Assembly: GCF_009914755.1 (NCBI RefSeq)
Contig: NC_060926.1
Length of the DNA: 64,000 bases
Reading direction: 5' to 3' (one strand)
Source of the DNA: the human T2T-CHM13v2.0 reference genome, Homo sapiens
The notes beneath the pieces were generated by a model. It searched no databases. It saw only the letters and a program-made list of their open reading frames with translations, and was not told the DNA's origin. Within the stretch, counting starts at the first letter, position 1, and each line of letters begins with the position of its first letter. Below are positions 3,789-64,000 of this stretch, one piece after another. Both the position numbers and the translations under genes were made by a program.

Positions 3789-4203
<415 letters not shown>

Positions 4204-4666
4204 GCATTTTTTGATTGTTGATGTTGTTAGCGTGAATTTTAGAGGTATTTGTCATTGAAATATTGTATTTTGAAGATGCTGTTTCACAGATACCGTTTTA
4301 CTTATAGATTTTTTGGTGTTTTCTGGTGTGTTGTTTTTATATTTGCAGTAAGTTTTTTCTGATCCATGCTTTTATTTTCTCCAAGTTTATATATTGATTT
4401 CAAAATGAGCATCCACGGGTATGATTTTGAAAATGTTTTCTGTACTAAAATATTTTCAAATGGGATCAGTGAGGTATGGTATTAAGTGCATTTGTTTCAA
4501 GGCCTTTAATTTTTGTTTGTGAAAATTTTACTGAGCAGCCAAATGCTATTTATGAGTACGTTTGTTTAATTTTTGAACAAAATATTATTTGTCTTTTTTA
4601 AAAGCCTAATTCATTAGTCAACATGAGGAATATTCTAATTTCAACACTTTTCTCCTTTTACAATAG

Positions 4667-22386: not shown

Positions 22387-22667
<281 letters not shown>

Positions 22668-22785
22668 AAGTTTGATGTTTTTATGTACTCAAATTTATTG
22701 GTATTCTATGGCTTCTGCATTTTTTTCTTTATTATTTTTATGCTTGTGACACAGCCTCAGGAGGTTCTGAGGACATGTTCCCCTC

Positions 22786-29465: not shown

Positions 29466-29518
29466 AAGAGATGCAGATGCTTCAAAAGCTGTTGAAATTG
29501 TTACTTCAACTTCTGCTG
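29466..29518 (+). CDS. ZNF638: ZNF638 coding exon (RDADASKAVEIVTSTSA)
   Basis: tag|A and G|gtaag; 53 nt, phase 2-1; TAGAAG tandem acceptor. Confidence 0.92.
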
Positions 29519-36612: not shown

Positions 36613-37036
36613 GTAAAAGTGCTTATATCAAACTGCAGTTGGATCAAAGATTTACTATGATACATAAGATGATAACAGTATTCTTTAAGTGTGGAGAATA
36701 TTTTTTGTAAAATTTAGGTTGAGAAGTCCTTCCCAATCAGGAAGACATTTGACTACATAAAATGTATTAATGCATAAGTATTTTGAGTGACTTTAAAAAA
36801 TTGTTAACCTATGTGTTAATTTTCTTAAGGAACTCTAATAAAAAATAAGAAGCCTCAACCCAAAAGATAAATTGGAAAATAGTATGATTAGGCAGATTAT
36901 AGAGAAAGAAGTAGAGATGACTTTTAAACATATGAAGACGGATACAACTACACTTATAATTAAAGAAAAAAAAATCCTACCAGTTTCCATTTCACATTGG
37001 GAAGGTTGATCATTTCAGTTAACCATGTTAGGTTTT

Positions 37037-37582
37037 TGTAGGAGATTGGTCAGGGTGGTGGGAAAAGTTATAAGGAGAGACGCAAACCTTCTTGGAAGTC
37101 CTGGGAGGTTTTGCAAAGCTTCGGGAGAGAATAAAGGCTGAAGGCAGCTAAATTCTCTTACCCTGAGGCTAAGGGCAAGTAGTAGGTAACAAAGGAGTGT
37201 AAAGGAATTTATCTAGATAAGTTTATTTACTTTTGCCGACCTTTGATCATCCGACCTTTGATCATCCGACCTTTGATCATCTGACCTTTGATCATCTGAC
37301 CTTTGATCATCCGACCTTTGATCATCTGACCTTTGATCATCCGCGTGCAGGACTGCTCCCTACAGGCGGGGGCAACAATTACCCACAGATTGTGTTGGCT
37401 CCAGGCCTTTGTCATTAAATCTGTACTAAATAAATACAAGCAGCTCCAGCTTATTGGGGCTGCGTTCTCTCTTCGGCGTCTCTAAGGCCGAGCAGTTTCC
37501 TAGCTGCGCTCACGCAAAATACCTGTGTCTGCGTACTTTTTTCATCCGTCGCTCGGCCAGAGTCGGTGGATCAGACTCAGCA
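37037..37582 (+). mobile_element. 5' LTR (LTR22-type)
   Basis: TGTAGGAGAT...CAGCA, 546 bp, AATAAA at 37429-34, directly followed by the PBS. Confidence 0.9.
37236..37340 (+). repeat. 7 x 15-bp tandem repeat C(C/T)GACCTTTGATCAT in the 5' LTR, each unit holding a TCF/LEF consensus
   Basis: Seven exact-period units read directly; only one copy at the homologous 3' LTR position (44494-44508). Confidence 0.97.
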
Positions 37583-37584
37583 GC

Positions 37585-37602
37585 TGGTGCCCCTCGTGAG
37601 GA
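37585..37602 (+). promoter_or_regulatory. Primer binding site, elongator tRNA-Met type
   Basis: TGGTGCCCCTCGTGAGGA matches the tRNA-Met(CAU) 3' complement TGGTGCCCCGTGTGAGGA at 16/18; a Met PBS is characteristic of HML-5. Confidence 0.85.
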
Positions 37603-37725
37603 ACACTGCAAGGGATCACGACGGAACCCCCGAAAATGAAGGCGAAGAGACTGTGCAGTCAGTAAGTCATTGGTGCCCACTCGGGATATCCAAGTTCAGG
37701 GGAATTCTCAGACTAGAGTTTCATC

Positions 37726-39282
37726 ATGAGACAACAGCTGTCCGCACAACAGAAACAGTATATAAAAGTATTGAAACAACTGCTTAAAGCTAGCAGAGCC
37801 TCGGTTTCACAGGCTCAGTTAAGGGTCCTAAGGCAAACTGTTGTTTCCCATAATCCATGGTTCCCAGCAGAAGGCATGCTGGACCTAGAGCTCTGGGAAT
37901 AAGTGGGGAGAAATCTTAAACAATACCATAAACAAGGGCAACGGGTCCCAGTAACATCTTTAACCTTATGGGCCTTAGTTAGGGCTGCTTTGGCCCTGCT
38001 GTACACAGAAGATCCCAAGAAGGGAAGGGAGAAGGAACCATCACCTACCTTACCGCCGCCTCCTCTTCCCTCAGCCCTGCCATTACTGGGTAAAGATACC
38101 AAAGAGGAAACAGAGGTTTTCCCTGAGCCCCCTCCCCCAATAAATTGGAAAAAAGACAAGGGATACACTACAGCTGTGGGACCCTGTCTTAGGCAAGTGG
38201 CATTAGAAGGGGAGCTCTTAACCTGCCCGGTAATGCAAGATCAGCAAGGTACTCAGGTATATGAACCCATTTCTTTTGACGCTTATAAAGATAAGAAAAA
38301 GCATCAGAGCAAACGGAGCTGCTAGTCCATTTATGAAAGGATTAATTGAAGCCATAGCAGACAACTTCTGTTTGGCCCCATGGGACTGGTCAGTGCTAGC
38401 TAAAACAACTTTAGAGCCCAGTCAGTACCTCCTCTGGAAGACAGAGTATGATGAGTTGTATGAACAACAAGCCAACCAGAATCAATTGGCCGGGCAAAAC
38501 ATAACAGCTGCTATGCTTCAGGGGAGGGGTTCCTATGCCAGTGTCCAACAACAATTAAGTTTTGTTCCCTAAGCCTATGCACAAGTGTCTTTGTGTGCTA
38601 TGAGGGCTTGGGACTGAATTCCCGAATTCCGAAAGCGGAAGTTCAACAAGGATCTTTATAAATGTTCGACAAGGGCCTCAGGAGCCATTTTTTGAATTTA
38701 TCAATCGGTTAACCCAGGCAATTAAGAGACAAATTAGTCATCCCCAGGCCGCTGATAATCTTATTGTTGCAGTTGGCTTATGAAAATGCTAACGTCGACT
38801 GCCAACAAGCAATGCAGGCAGTCAGAGGAAAGGCAGTTACGGCCAGGGAACTTACACGAGCACGTCAACTGGTGGGGACTGAAACACACAAAGCCAAAAT
38901 ATTGGCCATGGCAATAAAGTCTCCTGAAGTGAAAAGGGAGAAAACCCCAAATTGTTTTCTGTGTGGAGAGCCAGGTCATAAGAAGAGGCAGTGCCCCACT
39001 AGTAGAGACCAAGGTAACTCAGCAAAAGAACCCCCTTCTATATGCCCCCGACGTAGAAAGGGGAAACGTTGGGCAAATCAGTGCAAGTCCAAATTTGATA
39101 AAGATGCCAACCACCTAAGTAATCAGGTGGGAAACTTCATGAGGGGCCAGCCCCAGGCCCTGCTCCAAACTTGGGCAATGCCAGCGGCTTTCCTCGGTCA
39201 ATTGGAAAGCCCACAGTCCACTCTCTCAGAACAGCCACCTCTGGGAGCGCAGGATTGGGCTTACTCTGCCCCAACGAATTAG
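37726..39282 (+). pseudogene. gag: HML-5 gag (disrupted)
   Basis: MRQQLS...NPWFP matrix start (Gly2 lost), stop at 37900, frameshifts, QGPQEPF MHR-like segment, CFLCGEPGHKKRQC zinc knuckle. Confidence 0.88.
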
Positions 39283-39896
39283 TGCTAAAAGGAGAAGACC
39301 CTAAAAGGATTGCAACAGGGATCTGGGGCCCACTGCCTCCAGAACAGTGGGATTGGTCCTAGGATGATCAAGCCTATCCAGCAAAGGAATTAATGTGCTC
39401 ACCAGGGTAATTGATAGTGATTATCAAGATTGAGGTATTAGTTATGATGGAATGTAAAGGTCTGCATATTCTTCCCCCTAAATCTAAAATAGCTCAGTTA
39501 CTATTCTTACCGTACTGGGTCCCCAATGCCCAGGGAAAGAGGAAGGGAAGTTTTGGAAGCACGGGAGCCGTAGGAGTGTATTGGAACCAGTTAATCACTG
39601 ATCAGAGACCCATGATTACCTTAAAAATCGGAAATAAGAATTTTACTGGCTTATAGGATACAGGGGTGAATATTTCGATTATTAGTTATCAAAACTGGTC
39701 AGAAACTTGGCCTTGGGTCACTCAGAAACAAAAAATTGTCAGCACTGGCTAAGTGCACACAGCCAAGCAGAGCACACACCCCCTAACGTTGTGATTTGGA
39801 GGGAAAAAACAGTTAGCAACTCTAAACATGACTGTCCCTGTTAACCTTTGGGGACGGGACCGATTAGCCCAATGGGGGCTGCAAACCCCTTTCTAA
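39129..39896 (+). pseudogene. pro: HML-5 pro (dUTPase remnant plus protease, disrupted)
   Basis: G GGA AAC slippery heptamer at 39129 in the correct gag register; GVIDSDY, KIAQLL and GSFGSTG dUTPase motifs; L*DTG active-site remnant. Confidence 0.8.
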
Positions 39897-42516
39897 TAAT
39901 GGCCACTGTTGTTATTCTTCCCCTACCCCTGACGTGGTTCTCTCAAGATCCAATTTGGGTAGCACAGTGGCCTTTAAAGGGAGGGAAATAACAGTGAGCC
40001 CATGAGTTAGTTCAGCAATTAAAAGCCAGCCATATAGAACCATCAAGCAGCCCTTAGAATTTGCCCATTTTCATCATTCCCAAAAGGTCTGGGAAATGGG
40101 GACTTGCATGACTTACGGGCTATCAGTGGCAGTTTGCAACCTATGGGGCCCCTTCAACGGGGCTCCCTTCCCCTGTGGCAATTCTTCAAGATAGGCCTAT
40201 AGTCGATATTGACTTAAAAGACTGCTTTAATACTATTCCCCTTGCAGAACAGGGCAGAGAACAATTTACATTTACCATACTAGCTATCAGTAATGAAAGG
40301 GCAGCTTGCCAATTTCATTGGAAAGTACTTCCTCAAGGAATGCTGAACAGTCCTACCATGTGTCAGCATCATGTAAATCAGGCTTTGCTCCCCAGTAGAA
40401 AAAAATCTCCTAATTGCAAGATTATTCATTTTGTAGATGATATTTTACTAGCAGACCCAACAGAGCCAATACTTTTGAGTTTATATGCCTCTGTCGTTAA
40501 GATGTTAATCATAGCACCTGAAAAAGTACAGATGTCCTCACCTTGGAAATATCTTAGGTACATACTAACTTCCTGGTCAGTAAGACCTCAAAAGGTTAAA
40601 TTAAATACTAGCAACTTACATACCTTAAATGATTATCAAAAATTACTGGGTGATATTAACTGGCATCCCCCCACCTTGGGCATAACTACTGATAAATTAC
40701 AGAACCTGTTTTCTATCCTAAAAGGCAGTGCTGCCCTAGACTCACCCAGGTATTTAACCCCCGCAGCAAAAAGGGAAATTGAGGAAATAGACCAAGTTAT
40801 TTCTCAGAGACAACTAGATAGCATAGATCCACGATATTCAGTTCAGTTGTTTGTTTTTCCTGCTAAACACTCCTCTACAGGATTAATAGGACAGATGGCC
40901 ACAGGGCTGCGCTTCCTAGAATGTGTTTTTTGCTCACATACTGGGACTAAAACACTATTTGGCTATATCCAGCTAGTTAGTAAAGTCATCTATATGGGCC
41001 GCAGACGATGCAATCTGTGGCTGGGTTATGACCCTGAATGTCATAAGAATTTTCTTGAGTAGAAATTCGAAGTAGTCTTGCTCCATCTCTAGATTTTCAA
41101 TTAGCACTCTTTGATTATGCAGGCCATATAAAATATGCCCTTCCTGCTGGCAGACTATTTCAGTTCTTATCTCATACTCCTCTAGTTTTGCCAACAAAAG
41201 TAGTTCACTCCCTCATACCTAAAGCTTTAACGCTTTTTACTGATGGCTCTGGTAAAAATGGAAAAGCGGCTATTTGGTGGAAACCACATAATTCCCTCAC
41301 TCAATCTGGATTTACTACCGCTCAGGGAGCTGAGGTTGGAGCCCTAGTACTGGCCCTAGAAACCGAATCCGTTCAGCCCATTAACATTGTTAGTGACTCT
41401 GTTTGTTTGTTGCAAAACCTTGAGACCGCCCTCATTAAGTCCACTCTCGAGCCTACCCTGTGTACACCTTTTCTTGGACTTCAGCAATTGCTGGGTCAAC
41501 ATACACAGTTTTATCACACATATTCGAGCACACAGCTCACTGCCTTGCCCACTGGCTTATGGCAGTGATCAAGCAGACCTGCAGCTTATGACGTCACTGC
41601 TTGACCAAGCCACCCAGTCGCTTCAGTTTTTCCACCAAAATTAGAGAAACTTAACAATAGCAGCTTACCCAAAGACTGGGTAAACAAATTATCCTGCAGT
41701 GCCCAGATTGCCAGCTCACAGGCACATCTCTTCCTTGAACAGGTGTTAACCTTAGAGGACTAGAACCTTATCCATTATAGCAACAGATGTTACACACGTC
41801 CCTAAATTTGGAATACTAAGATATGTACATGTATCCATTGATACCAGTTCCTACCTAATTAGCGCACATGCTCTTCCTGGAGAGTCCACACGATACATCA
41901 TTAAACATCTTTTAACTTCTGCGTTTATGGGGTGGCCCACAAAAATTAAAACTGATAATAATCTGGCCTGTGCCAGCTCACATATTCAACAATTTTGTCA
42001 CACATGGAGCATCCAACATTCCACAGGCATCCCGTATAACTGACAGGCCATAGTAGAACGTGCCCACTCCACCCTTAAAAATATGCTCAGAAAACAAAAA
42101 GGGGAAAATGAGTAAGGACCCTGCAACACTACTAGCACAAGTGTTATTTACCCTTAATTTCTAAAATTTAAATGATAAATTTCAATCAACTATAGAAAAG
42201 CACCTTGCTAAAACCTCTCAAGACATAAAACCCGCAGTTTTATGGAAAGATGTAAATAGTAACGTATGGTGTAGTCCAAATGAATTGCTAACGTGGGGAA
42301 GATGATATGCTTGTGTTCACACCCCCCTCAGGCCCTCTTTGGATTCCAGTACGATGCATCAGACCATACCATGGCGTGGCTAGGACCCAACACAGTACCA
42401 GAAGTGAAGGAAATGATCCTGCAGGACCCGCAGCTCCAGACAACACAGCTTCCTCAGACGACACAAGCCCCGGACATTACCTGGGGGATGCTGAAGAAGA
42501 CAACTTACAAGGCTGA
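39880..42516 (+). pseudogene. pol: HML-5 pol (RT/RNase H/integrase, disrupted)
   Basis: IDLKDCF, LPQGMLNSPT, FVDD (degenerate YMDD), QKLLGDINW, FTDGS, QQDVTH; multiple frameshifts. Confidence 0.9.
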
Positions 42517-44294
42517 GCAAATCCTGCTCCAGACACAGAAACCATTCACTCCAGATAATTTGTTCCTTGCTCTGCTCTCTGGTGTAAGTTACAACTCACG
42601 TAGGATCCTTTTTATGCTCTCGCTTTCCCTGCAACCCGTACCGGCTACACTCTATTGGGCTCATCTGTTAGATCCGCCTTTCTTACGCCCTGTTACCTGG
42701 GCAGGCACCCCCTTCCCAGCCTCTAATAACGTTAACTGCTTGGCTAGGAGGGATTGACTTATCCCAGTAGGGTCCGTTATTAATGGCACACATTGGACTA
42801 AGGTGCCAGGTAACACTACATATCACTCCATTATCTTCCCACTGTGTGTAAGGTTACTATGTACCTGCCGAAACACAATTATGGCTACAAATGGCAAAGG
42901 AAATGCCTTAACATTCTTGTGCCAGTAGCCTCAAACCGGGCAAGGCAATCAGTGCCACTTTCCCCAGCATTCTTCCCTGTGCTAAAGAACAAAGCCAGGA
43001 AAGTAATGGATTCCACTTTGGTTGGGAGGTCTGTCACAGGGGACAAGCCCTTAGTCTCCAGTTAGGCAATTTAACATCTTAGACTGGAGCCCCCATGGTC
43101 ATTTACAGGGCGACCATACTGATGTTTGCATCCATTGTGGTGTCAATCTTAGTTTCATAGCCATGTCCGTTCCCCTGTGATTTGGGCCGAAGGGGGGATG
43201 GGATATCCCAGACCCCAAGTAGAGTCCTTGCCACCCCAAGACACTTAATGGCATCTGGGACATCTTAGCACCACCCTTAACACCTGGCATGGGACATAAC
43301 ATAATTCCAGTAACAATTATACTATGACCTTTATGCATAATCACACAGATCAGTGCCTGATTTGCACTACCCATCCATATGTTTTTCTTATGGGAACCAG
43401 TATTTCCATTACACCTCAAAACTCCATGTTTGTGACCTGAGTGCAAGGACAGGCTTGCTTCACCTCATGTATCATTAATTACAATATATCTAATTTAAAT
43501 ATTACTAGTATTATGGTATTAAGGAGACAATCTGAGGCATTCCTACCAGTCAGTTTGATACACGATTGGCAAGGTTCCTTTGCTCTTGCCACCTTAGAAC
43601 ATGCCCTGTCCCAGGTCAGACACCAAAGATTCATAGTTAATCTTACAGCCTTTATAGTCTCAGCCATAGTCATCCTAGCAACTGCTAGTTTTGCTGTAGC
43701 ATCTATTACTGAATCAGTACAAATAGCTGCTTTTGTAGATAACTTGGCCAGAAATGTGTCTAATGAACTTCTCTTACAGCAGGGTACAAATCAAAAGGTT
43801 CTTGCACATCTGCAAGCCCTCGAGGCTGCCTTGGAACATGTAGGGGAGTGACAAGATGCGCTGGCATTCTGACAGCAATTAAACTGTGACTGGGAGCATA
43901 AGCATATCTGTGTCACCTCTCTACCATGGAACCAATCAATACATAGTTGGGATGAGGTGAAACAACACCTCGGGGTGACCTTACATGATAATTTAACAGC
44001 AGACGTAAAGCAACTTAAAACTAAAATTCTAGAATCCCTAAACGCCATAGATCTACATGTCCAACAAACAGTTATATGGAAGGATGTGCAAGAACATCTC
44101 TCCTGGATAGACCCTCACTCCTTGATTGGAAAAAAATATTACTAATTATACTCATGTTTGTCTTATGTTATTTACTAATTCTAGGATGCAAAGCCGGAAT
44201 ACGAGCAGTAATCGCTACGCCTGACAAACCTGCTGCTGTGCACATCTGTACTCTTCAATCAACAAAACCTGATGCAAAAAACAAAAGGGGGAGA
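42413..44294 (+). pseudogene. env: HML-5 env (disrupted)
   Basis: Leader TWGMLKK...TPDNLFLALL; RHQR/FIVNL cleavage site and fusion peptide; heptad and TM segments; internal stops; PPT AAAAGGGGGAGA at 44283-94. Confidence 0.85.
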
Positions 44295-44755
44295 TGTAGG
44301 AGATCAGTCAGGGTGGTGGGAAAAGTTATAAGGAGAGACGCAAACCTTCTTGGAAGTCCAGGAGGTTTTGCAAAGCTTCGGGAGAGAATAAAGGCTGAAG
44401 GCAGCTAAATTCTCTTACCCTGACGCTAAGGGCAAGAAGTAGGTAACAAAGGAGTGTAAAGGAATTTATCTAGACGAGTTTTATTTACTTTTGCAGACCT
44501 TTGATCATCCTATTGCGCGCAGGACTGCTCCCAAGGCGGTGGGGGTGACAATTACCTACAGATTGTGTTGGCTCCAGGCCTTTGTCATTAAATCTGTACT
44601 GAATAAATACAAGCGGCTCCAGCTTATCAGGGCTGCATTCTCTCTTTGGTGTCTCTAAGGCCGAACAGTCCCCTAGCCGCACTCATGCAAAATACCTGTG
44701 TCTGTGTACTTTTTTCATCCGTCGCTCAGCCTGAGTCTGCAGGTCAGACTTGGCA
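44295..44755 (+). mobile_element. 3' LTR (LTR22-type)
   Basis: 461 bp, homologous to the 5' LTR, AATAAA at 44602-07, preceded by the PPT. Confidence 0.9.
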
Positions 44756-45078
44756 GGATTTTGACTTGATATATTGTGTGTGTTTGGAAATGGGGAATAA
44801 TTCCTATGCTTATGTACTGTTGATGGGAATATTAATTGGTTCAGCCTTTCTGAAGGTCAGTCTAATGTTACTTGTTAAAATTTAAATCTGTATGCCTTTT
44901 GATACATCAAGTCCATATCTAAGAATTTGCCCCCATAGTAATTCCATGGACATACAAAGATGAGTATAGGGCTGTTTCTTGCAGGGTTCTTTCGAAATTA
45001 TTGCTAGGTTGACTTTTAACTAAATCCAAGTGATGTTATTTGTAATGTAGTACTTAAATGTTTTTCTTGTTGTTTTAG

Positions 45079-45129
45079 CCAAAACTGGACAAGCCAAGGC
45101 ATCTGTAGCCAAAGTAAACAAATCTACAG
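45079..45129 (+). CDS. ZNF638: ZNF638 coding exon (AKTGQAKASVAKVNKST)
   Basis: ttttag|CC and G|gtatg; 51 nt, phase 1-1. Confidence 0.92.
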
Positions 45130-59624: not shown

Positions 59625-60239
<615 letters not shown>

Positions 60240-60375
60240 CCAGGGAAGTTTTTCTATTATTATTTTTTGATTTATTTCCTTCAATTTTTAATATTCTGTT
60301 TTTCTGGAAATAATACCAGCACTGATTTCATAGATGCTGTATTCTCTTGAATTTTTCTGAGGATGTTCTTTTGAG

Positions 60376-64000
<3,625 letters not shown>

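What the first reader, a model, noticed from the sequence alone, without database searches (positions are those of the whole stretch)
37236..37340. Natural TOPflash-like cassette: 7 tandem TCF/LEF sites expanded only in the proviral 5' LTR
Seen: seven 15-bp units each contain CCTTTGATC, while the 3' LTR has one. LTRs are identical at integration, so the difference arose afterwards, most simply by expansion. Established: CCTTTGATC is the optimal TCF/LEF site multimerised in TOPflash Wnt reporters. Units 4, 5 and 7 carry a CpG-to-TpG change giving TGACCTTTGATCA, an exact NR4A NBRE (AAAGGTCA) and a DR1-like nuclear-receptor site. The other four units keep a methylatable CpG. Inference: a Wnt/beta-catenin and nuclear-receptor responsive enhancer or promoter, possibly a VNTR, inside ZNF638.
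Basis: partly seen in the sequence, partly recalled or inferred. Interest (0 to 1): 0.82.

Follow-up and report, generated by a model that had tools for sequence, protein, structure and literature searches.

The report
Seven-unit TCF-site minisatellite in proviral LTR
One end of an old, broken retrovirus copy inside a ZNF638 intron has grown a seven-fold repeat of a perfect Wnt-pathway (TCF/LEF) binding site, a rare curiosity whose activity as a gene switch is untested.

Summary
Window 37236-37343 holds 7.2 head-to-tail copies of a 15-bp unit. Each copy carries an exact CCTTTGATC, and the 3' LTR carries one.

The array lies in the U3 part of the 5' LTR of a 7.7-kb, broken, betaretrovirus-like provirus. 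The provirus runs in the same direction as ZNF638 and sits in one of its introns.

In a sample of 28 other LTR copies of the family, 26 have exactly one recognisable unit and none has a tandem. A two-unit pattern occurs nowhere else in any family copy in the 3.1-Gb genome. Expansion by slippage after integration is therefore the best reading.

The array has seven sites at 15-bp pitch, like a synthetic 7xTCF Wnt reporter. It is the densest same-strand cluster of this nonamer that I found.

Function is untested. CpG retention and slower change in the 5' LTR looked suggestive but failed controls. No paper links this locus to TCF.

Verdict: a real and striking minisatellite, most likely neutral. 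It could be a conditional TCF platform.

The parts
37031..37036 (+). 5' copy of the target-site duplication (GGTTTT)
   Evidence: Read. It matches GGATTT after the 3' LTR at 5 of 6 positions.
37037..37582 (+). 5' LTR (TG...CA), 546 bp, carrying the array in its U3 part
   Evidence: Direct repeats D2, D6 and D7. Alignment with the 3' LTR: 41 mismatches in 460 aligned positions (8.9%).
37236..37343 (+). 15-bp minisatellite, 7.2 units. It holds seven exact CCTTTGATC sites at 37240, 37255, 37270, 37285, 37300, 37315 and 37330.
   Evidence: (family D1).
37282..37334 (-). Three exact AAAGGTCA octamers (37282-37289, 37297-37304, 37327-37334), created by CpG-to-TpG in units 4, 5 and 7
   Evidence: NBRE definition from PMC9894219 (passage).
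37429..37434 (+). AATAAA poly(A)-signal-like hexamer of the 5' LTR, about 86 bp downstream of the array. An ATTAAAT lies just upstream of it.
   Evidence: Read. The role is inferred, not tested.
37585..37601 (+). Primer-binding-site-like TGG... 17-mer, two bases after the LTR end
   Evidence: Read. The tRNA assignment was not tested.
37583..44294 (+). Degenerate internal region gag-pol-env in many stop-bounded fragments
   Evidence: Pfam: Gag_p24 5e-27, zf-CCHC_5 3.7e-10, zf-CCHC 2.6e-5, RVT_1 1.3e-19, RVT_thumb 1.2e-25, RNase_H 1.3e-8, rve 5.3e-12, GP41 8.5e-9. Gag_p10 and HERV-K_REC matched below their cut-offs. ORF map.
44276..44294 (+). Polypurine tract directly before the 3' LTR
   Evidence: Read.
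44295..44755 (+). 3' LTR, 461 bp, with a single unit (CCTTTGATC at 44498-44506)
44756..44761 (+). 3' copy of the target-site duplication (GGATTT)
   Evidence: Read.

Best explanation
What it is. The feature is a locus-specific minisatellite. A betaretrovirus-like (HML-type, probably HERVK22/LTR22) provirus integrated in the sense direction into a ZNF638 intron. From 9.7% LTR divergence and recalled substitution rates, this was roughly 20-45 million years ago.

How it arose. Both LTRs then carried one copy of a family-typical 12-mer, ACCTTTGATCAT. In this viral lineage the 12-mer is flanked by CCG on both sides. After integration, replication slippage or unequal exchange in the 5' LTR alone duplicated the 15-bp unit stepwise up to 7 units. 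The variant order C-C-C-T-T-C-T(-C) fits one CpG-to-TpG change followed by further duplications of a T unit and a T-C pair. That last step is inference.

What it does. The result is seven same-strand, perfect TCF/LEF (HMG-box) nonamers at 15-bp pitch in the U3 enhancer position. Three of them double as NR4A-type AAAGGTCA sites.

Shown versus inferred. The structure, its uniqueness and its origin after integration are shown. Function is inferred. The array should bind TCF/LEF strongly wherever chromatin is open and would then act like a 7xTCF reporter. My estimate is about 35% that it is bound in some cell type, and about 10-15% that it measurably regulates ZNF638 or has been selected. Most likely it is a neutral by-product that is silenced in most tissues.
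For: Array and motif counts.

One integration event: LTR pair, 5/6 target-site duplication, polypurine tract and primer-binding-site-like 17-mer. Retroviral domains in order on the + strand.

Single unit is the family norm. In 28 other copies found with a query that lacks the unit, 13 are exact, 11 have one mismatch, 2 have two mismatches, 2 have the unit deleted, and 0 have a tandem.

No other tandem in a family copy. The two-unit pattern with up to 2 mismatches gives 7 hits genome-wide. Six are this array and one is an unrelated chr18 site that does not align with the LTR.

No sign of selection after controls:
- The 12-mer ranks only 50 of 255 for conservation in the unbiased sample.
- Polarised substitutions are 9 (5' LTR) against 16 (3' LTR), with 14 unpolarised, p = 0.23.
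- Other sampled LTR pairs, matched by coordinates, differ 2- to 3-fold in CpG count in either direction: 4 vs 10, 10 vs 3 and 6 vs 3. Here it is 12 vs 6.
- The reversed control pattern for triple sites gives 3 hits against 3 other real loci, so tandem repeats produce such clusters at background rate.

No paper was found that ties the locus to TCF or to a VNTR.
Against: Several observations lean towards function or a recent origin:
- The array has no non-CpG variant among 7 units. About 2.7 are expected if it is as old as the provirus, P(0) = 0.069.
- The 243 bp just downstream keep CpG o/e 0.82 at 53% GC. The 3' LTR equivalent has 0.50, the provirus interior 0.30 and the intron 0.21.
- 37301-37800 is one of only three CpG-island-like zones in the 64 kb.
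- This 5' LTR ranks 1 of 30 family copies for CpG count.
- With the first outgroup set, derived changes were 7 (5' LTR) against 21 (3' LTR), p = 0.0125.
- With 7 nonamers it is the densest same-strand cluster found in the genome. The other three loci have 3, 3 and 4.
- Pitch and number equal those of a working synthetic 7xTCF reporter.
Confidence: 0.65

Rival explanations
1. The expanded 5' LTR is an exapted Wnt/beta-catenin-responsive enhancer or alternative promoter acting on ZNF638 or a neighbour. It may vary in copy number.
For: There are seven perfect copies of the motif called the optimal LEF/TCF motif of pTOPFLASH. Their 15-bp pitch and count match a 7xTCF reporter. It is the densest such cluster found genome-wide. 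It sits in the U3 position upstream of a TATA-like and an AATAAA element. A CpG-island-like zone lies immediately downstream. A GTAAGT donor-like site lies at 37662, sense to ZNF638. The array has no non-CpG variation (P = 0.069). Ito et al. 2017 list LTR22A/B/C among LTR types with the largest share of copies carrying shared TF-bound elements (PMC5529029, passage).
Against: No binding, chromatin or expression data could be examined. RefSeq lists no functional element here (hub note). The constraint proxies failed controls. Gene-body introns and ERVK LTRs are usually methylated and silenced (general knowledge, recalled). In Ito et al. the TF behind the LTR22 elements is not named in the passages seen, and LTR22 does not occur in the 12 of 13 supplementary files that were searched.
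Confidence: 0.2
2. The infecting virus already carried a multi-unit U3 enhancer repeat, as many exogenous retroviruses do, and the 3' LTR later contracted to one unit.
For: Tandem arrays can contract in register. This provirus is a lone lineage: the best paralogue is only about 88% identical over 190 nt. It also has a private deletion just upstream of the unit. No close sister copy therefore shows what its virus looked like.
Against: 0 of 28 other family copies have more than one unit, and there is no other tandem in a family copy genome-wide. It requires loss of exactly six units, whereas expansion needs no special assumption. The T-variant pattern fits stepwise growth.
Confidence: 0.07
3. 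The relevant binders are nuclear receptors (NR4A monomers on AAAGGTCA, or HNF4/COUP-TF/RXR on the DR1-like TGATCAAAGGTCA) or SOX factors, not TCF/LEF.
For: There are three exact NBRE octamers (definition). Several paralogues natively read TGACCTTTGATCAT (L044, L049 and L052). HMG-box SOX sites overlap the TCF core (recalled).
Against: Only 3 of 7 units carry the octamer, and the octamer is not enriched in the window. The second DR1 half-site matches only 4 of 6 positions of the recalled AGGTCA half-site. There are no binding data.
Confidence: 0.05
4. The array is an assembly or collapse artefact.
For: None found.
Against: The array is 105 bp with unique flanks and interspersed C/T variants, in a telomere-to-telomere assembly (hub note).
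Confidence: 0.01

Closest known systems
Synthetic TOPflash / 7xTCF (SuperTOPflash-type) Wnt reporters
   Same: The core nonamer is the same: CCTTTGATC, or GATCAAAGG on the other strand. The 7xTCF promoter printed in PMC13129419 (Table 1 passage) has seven sites, mostly in 15-bp units. This matches the number, pitch and single orientation of the natural array. pTOPFLASH uses three copies of the same motif (PMC3762847, passage).
   Different: This array is natural and arose by slippage. The spacer is ATCCGA/ATCTGA rather than GGGTA-type. It sits in chromatin inside a transcribed intron and an ERV LTR, with CpGs between the sites. No response to Wnt has been shown.
Tandem enhancer repeats in retroviral and HERV U3 regions (for example HERV-9/LTR12 U3 repeats bound by NF-Y; MLV 72/75-bp repeats)
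   Same: A short unit carrying a TF site is multiplied in U3, upstream of the promoter. NF-Y binding to HERV-9 is listed in a table of PMC8718366. The repeat structure of LTR12 and MLV is recalled and comes from no call.
   Different: Those repeats belong to the virus or subfamily and are present in both LTRs and in many copies. Here the repeat is private to one LTR of one provirus.
Minisatellites / VNTRs arising inside transposable elements
   Same: Head-to-tail 15-bp units, high purity, and flanking microhomology (CCG...CCG) in the single-copy state.
   Different: Copy-number polymorphism, the defining property of a VNTR, could not be tested. The unit happens to be a perfect TF site.
HERV-K(HML-5) = HERVK22 with LTR22-type LTRs
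   Same: Betaretrovirus-like gag with two zinc knuckles, RT, RNase H, integrase and TM fragments. There are tens of paralogous LTRs of about 460 bp. LTR divergence of 8.9% lies within the 8-23% given for HML5/HML6 (PMC4724089, passage). The naming is from PMC5753468 (passage).
   Different: No Repbase or Dfam comparison was possible. The LTRs of this provirus are only about 80-88% identical to the best paralogues and carry a private deletion upstream of the unit.

Membership tests
Proviral LTR pair of a betaretrovirus-like (HML) ERV | Two direct long terminal repeats with TG...CA ends flanking gag-pol-env on one strand | tested here: met
   (LTRs 37037-37582 and 44295-44755). (Gag_p24, zf-CCHC, RVT_1, RVT_thumb, RNase_H, rve and GP41 in order on the + strand).
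Proviral LTR pair of a betaretrovirus-like (HML) ERV | Short target-site duplication, a primer-binding site after the 5' LTR and a polypurine tract before the 3' LTR | tested here: met
   GGTTTT / GGATTT (5 of 6 positions), a TGG... 17-mer at 37585, and a purine tract at 44276-44294, read. The tRNA specificity was not tested.
LTR22 / HERVK22 (HML-5) as named by Repbase/Dfam | Best match to the LTR22 and HERVK22 reference models | not testable with these tools
   No repeat library is on hand. Only paralogues in the same genome were compared. Lavie et al. 2004 is not held.
Virus-encoded U3 enhancer repeat | The repeat is present in both LTRs and in related copies | tested here: not met
   The 3' LTR has 1 unit. 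0 of 28 other copies have a tandem. No other family tandem exists genome-wide.
Minisatellite / VNTR | Head-to-tail array of 10-60-bp units | tested here: met
   period 15, 7.2 copies, 95% matches.
Minisatellite / VNTR | Copy number varies among individuals | not testable with these tools
   Only one human assembly is held. The ZNF638 + VNTR search gave 6 papers, of which 5 were listed and one passage was read. The titles, abstract starts and passage seen do not concern this array.
Wnt-responsive element (TCF/LEF enhancer) | High-affinity TCF/LEF core motif | tested here: met
   Seven exact CCTTTGATC. [quoted passage not shown]
Wnt-responsive element (TCF/LEF enhancer) | TCF/LEF and beta-catenin occupancy, and beta-catenin-dependent activation | not testable with these tools
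   No ChIP, accessibility or reporter data are available here. No paper was found.
NR4A response element (NBRE) | Exact AAAGGTCA octamer | tested here: met
   Three sites on the minus strand. Definition in PMC9894219 (passage). Binding was not tested.
CpG island (sequence criteria recalled: at least 200 bp, GC at least 0.5, o/e at least 0.6) | Sequence criteria met next to the array | tested here: met
   300-bp windows starting at 37301-37501 pass. 37341-37583 has o/e 0.82 and GC 0.53. Methylation state is unknown, and the LTR-pair asymmetry is not unusual.

The most novel reading that the evidence does not exclude
The array is a working natural '7xTCF reporter'. On this reading it is an expansion that arose late in primate evolution and may vary in copy number. 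It would turn the 5' LTR into a Wnt/beta-catenin-driven enhancer or alternative promoter, unmethylated in germline or early embryo. It might splice from the GTAAGT at 37662 into the ZNF638 exon at 45079. That would put ZNF638, itself a silencer of retroviral DNA, under Wnt control through a retroviral LTR.
Probability: 0.1. Interest if true: 0.75.

Novelty: new member of a known kind. Interest (0 to 1): 0.42.

Why it matters
If the array is active, it would be a clear example of a new, strong, signal-specific enhancer made in one step by slippage of a single pre-existing TF site in a transposable element. Copy number would act as a natural dial for Wnt input to ZNF638, a gene involved in silencing retroviral DNA.

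It would also be an endogenous single-locus read-out of TCF/beta-catenin activity.

If it is inactive, it is a useful negative case. Seven optimal sites at reporter spacing would then not be enough in native chromatin.

As it stands, it is a well-documented curiosity that is cheap to test against public ChIP-seq, methylation and long-read data.

Tried and rejected
1. Conservation of the 12-mer as evidence of constraint. In 16 full-length paralogues it ranked 1 of 451. That set had been retrieved with a query holding seven units. In 28 copies retrieved with a unit-free query it ranks 50 of 255. Rejected as evidence.

2. Slower evolution of the 5' LTR. The count was 7 vs 21 derived changes, p = 0.0125, with 15 outgroups found with the 5' LTR query. 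It was 9 vs 16, with 14 unpolarised, p = 0.23, with 28 outgroups retrieved using the first 196 nt of the 3' LTR. Not robust.

3. CpG retention as a proxy for germline hypomethylation. Private CpGs are 12 vs 5, binomial p = 0.14. Other LTR pairs differ as much in either direction.

4. Hairpin-driven instability. The array folded as single-stranded DNA gives only -10.4 kcal/mol, z = -2.4, and the centroid is unpaired. This is weak.

5. The chr18 two-unit hit is unrelated sequence.

6. Literature. An LTR22 search gave 40 papers, of which 25 were listed and passages of 3 were read. None of the titles, abstract starts or passages seen mentions TCF sites in LTR22. ZNF638 + HERVK22 gave 0 papers. ZNF638 + VNTR gave nothing relevant. 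A five-term ERV/TCF7L2/Wnt search gave 1 irrelevant review. For Ito 2017, 12 of 13 supplementary files were searched with no LTR22 hit, and file 13 was not searched. Lavie 2004 is not held.

8. The tRNA assignment of the primer-binding site was not attempted, because a short-pattern genome scan would be swamped by chance hits.

Full report
**1. The observation**

Tandem Repeats Finder reports one array at 37236-37343: period 15, 7.2 copies, 95% matches, no indels. The nonamer CCTTTGATC occurs nine times in the 64-kb window. Seven copies lie at exact 15-bp steps from 37240 to 37330, one lies at 44498 and one unrelated copy lies at 59771 on the other strand. Shuffles give a mean of 0.80, and none of 100 reached nine.

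Units 4, 5 and 7 carry the TpG variant. There the minus strand reads an exact AAAGGTCA, at 37282, 37297 and 37327. The octamer as such is not enriched in the window: 7 were found against 4.6 expected.

**2. What surrounds it**

Direct-repeat search and pairwise alignment show two LTRs, 37037-37582 and 44295-44755.
- Both begin TG and end CA.
- The six bases before the first (GGTTTT) and after the second (GGATTT) agree at five of six positions.
- A TGG-initiated primer-binding-site-like 17-mer starts two bases after the 5' LTR.
- A polypurine tract abuts the 3' LTR.

Between the LTRs, stop-bounded fragments on the + strand match, in order, Gag_p24, Gag zinc knuckles, RVT_1, RVT_thumb, RNase_H, the integrase core and the GP41-type transmembrane protein. 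Gag_p10 and HERV-K_REC match only below their cut-offs. This is a broken, betaretrovirus-like (HML-type) provirus of about 7.7 kb. It runs in the same direction as ZNF638, in the intron between the exons at 29466-29518 and 45079-45129 (hub table).

The name LTR22/HERVK22 (HML-5) is plausible. Repbase pairs HERVK22 with the LTR22 subfamilies (PMC5753468, passage). HML5/HML6 LTR divergences of 8-23% are reported (PMC4724089, passage). I could not test the name, because no repeat library is available and Lavie et al. 2004 is not held.

**3. LTR comparison and age**

Outside one 86-nt gap the LTRs differ at 41 of 460 aligned positions. That is 8.9%, or a Kimura two-parameter (K2P) distance of 0.097, made up of 14 CpG transitions, 19 other transitions and 8 transversions. 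With neutral primate rates of about 1-2.3 x 10^-9 per site per year (recalled), this puts integration roughly 20-45 million years ago. The gap is exactly the six extra units.

**4. Expansion or contraction?**

A genome search with the 5' LTR found 63 matching stretches; 40 of 535 first-look candidates were scored. In the 30 loci returned, only this 5' LTR had more than one unit.

That query contains seven units and could favour copies with an intact unit. I therefore repeated the search with the first 196 nt of the 3' LTR, which lack the unit. Of the 28 loci other than this provirus:
- 13 have the 12-mer ACCTTTGATCAT exactly;
- 11 have it with one mismatch;
- 2 have it with two mismatches;
- 2 have it deleted;
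- none has a second adjacent unit.

A genome-wide pattern of two adjacent units, with up to 2 mismatches, hit six times inside this array and once on chr18. The chr18 sequence does not align with the LTR.

One unit is therefore the family norm.

A residual alternative remains, which I put at about 7%. The virus may have carried a multi-unit U3 and the 3' LTR then contracted. This provirus has no close sister copy (the best paralogue is about 88% identical over 190 nt). It also carries a private deletion just upstream of the unit.

That deletion leaves the single-copy state as CCG-12mer-CCG. This is a 3-nt microhomology that could have seeded the first slippage (inference). The variant order C-C-C-T-T-C-T(-C) can be produced by one CpG-to-TpG change followed by duplication of a T unit and of a T-C pair. 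That would mean stepwise growth (inference). As single-stranded DNA the array folds weakly, at -10.4 kcal/mol with z = -2.4.

**5. Resemblance to Wnt reporters and rarity**

[quoted passage not shown] A printed 7xTCF reporter promoter consists of seven AGATCAAAGG sites, mostly in 15-bp units (PMC13129419, Table 1 passage). The natural array has the same nonamer, the same number of sites, the same pitch and a single orientation.

Genome-wide, three same-strand nonamers with gaps of up to 30 nt occur at only four loci. This one has 7 sites and the others have 3, 3 and 4. The reversed control pattern also gives three hits. Tandem repeats therefore generate such clusters at background frequency. 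The cluster is rare and the densest found, but its existence alone is not evidence of selection.

NBRE = AAAGGTCA is confirmed from PMC9894219 (passage). The DR1-like reading (a second half-site matching 4 of 6 positions) and the overlap with SOX-type HMG sites rest on recalled consensus motifs.

**6. Looking for signs of function in the sequence**

I tried three proxies.

(a) Conservation of the unit. It ranked 1 of 451 in 16 full-length paralogues, but that sample was biased by the query. In the unbiased 28 it scores 0.884 against a mean of 0.795 for that part of the LTR, and ranks 50 of 255. It is somewhat above average and nothing more.

(b) CpG retention.
- The 5' LTR has 20 CpGs against 12 in the 3' LTR. 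In aligned columns the counts are 18 vs 11, with private CpGs 12 vs 5 (p = 0.14).
- The 243 bp after the array have o/e 0.82 at 53% GC. The 3' LTR equivalent has 0.50, the interior 0.30 and the intron 0.21.
- 37301-37800 is one of three CpG-island-like zones in the window. The other two coincide with masked repeats.
- This LTR ranks first of 30 copies for CpG count.
- However, other LTRs in the same sample that pair up by coordinates differ as much in either direction: 4 vs 10, 10 vs 3 and 6 vs 3.

(c) Rate asymmetry. There were 7 vs 21 derived changes (p = 0.0125) with outgroups found using the 5' LTR. With 28 outgroups retrieved with the unit-free query from the 3' LTR's first 196 nt, the count was 9 vs 16 with 14 unpolarised (p = 0.23).

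The array itself shows no non-CpG variant, where about 2.7 are expected if it is as old as the provirus (P = 0.069). That would fit a younger age, ongoing homogenisation or constraint.

Together these are hints in one direction, and none is significant after controls.

**7. Literature**

- LTR22A/B/C are among the LTR types with the highest share of copies carrying shared TF-bound elements (PMC5529029, Table 1 passage). The TF is not named in the passages seen, and LTR22 does not occur in the 12 of 13 supplementary files searched.
- LTR22C appears in a T2T epigenomic preprint for H3K9me3 dynamics (passages).
- An HML-5 microarray study characterised only promoter-type solo LTRs in this family (PMC3386233, passage).
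- No paper holds both ZNF638 and HERVK22.
- The ZNF638 + VNTR hits concern other things. One is an antisense L1Hs promoter elsewhere in the gene.
- bioRxiv supplements are closed and might hold locus-level tables that I could not see.

**8. Verdict**

The structure is real. It is private to one LTR, it arose after integration, and it is a remarkably exact natural counterpart of a 7xTCF reporter.

The mechanism I commit to is as follows. It is a slippage-born minisatellite that multiplies an ancestral TCF/LEF-type site. It is able to recruit TCF/LEF, and in three units NR4A-type receptors, where chromatin allows. It is most likely silent and neutral in most tissues.

My odds:
- about 65% for this reading;
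- about 20% for a genuinely used Wnt-responsive enhancer or promoter;
- about 7% for the contraction scenario;
- about 5% for nuclear receptors or SOX factors rather than TCF/LEF being the relevant binders;
- about 1% for an assembly artefact.

As a kind of thing (a minisatellite in an LTR that multiplies a TF site) it is known. As an instance it is new as far as my searches reach. Public ChIP-seq and methylation tracks, ape orthologues and pangenome copy counts would settle the matter quickly.

Noticed in passing
window 37662-37667: A strong 5' splice-site-like GTAAGT (preceded by CA) lies about 80 nt after the 5' LTR, sense to ZNF638. The next ZNF638 exon starts at 45079, only 323 nt after the 3' LTR ends. 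An LTR-initiated chimeric transcript is conceivable but unsupported.
   Followed up: no
window 37301-37800: This is a CpG-island-like stretch (o/e up to 0.83, GC 0.52) covering the U5 part of the 5' LTR and the leader. It is one of three such zones in the 64 kb. The other two (about 3900-4300 and about 22400-22700) coincide with masked repeats.
   Followed up: partly
window 37223-37238 and 44482-44497 compared with loci L040-L065: Both LTRs of this provirus lack about 11-14 nt just upstream of the unit that nearly all paralogues have (…TGTCCGGAAACCA…). This marks the provirus as a separate, single-copy viral lineage and creates the CCG…CCG microhomology around the unit.
   Followed up: partly
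window 44510-44516: Compared with the 5' LTR and the paralogues, the 3' LTR carries a few extra bases right after its single unit (ATCCTATTGCGCGC against ATCCGCGTGC).
   Followed up: no
L073 (G000:C9:149701040-149701108) and L071 (G000:C6:139752799-139752849): These are two other tandem arrays (30-bp and 21-bp units) that each repeat CCTTTGATC, 4 and 3 times. L072 (C9:130790405) has three sites in non-repetitive-looking sequence.
   Followed up: partly
window 37037-44755: A near full-length provirus with AATAAA in both LTRs sits in the sense direction inside an intron of a broadly expressed gene. Such sense insertions are usually selected against (recalled).
   Followed up: no
ZNF638 gene, place not located in the window: A preprint passage (10.1101/2020.05.24.113068) reports an antisense intronic L1Hs in ZNF638 that drives an alternative ZNF638 transcript. 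I did not check whether it is the long masked stretch at 60366-64000.
   Followed up: no
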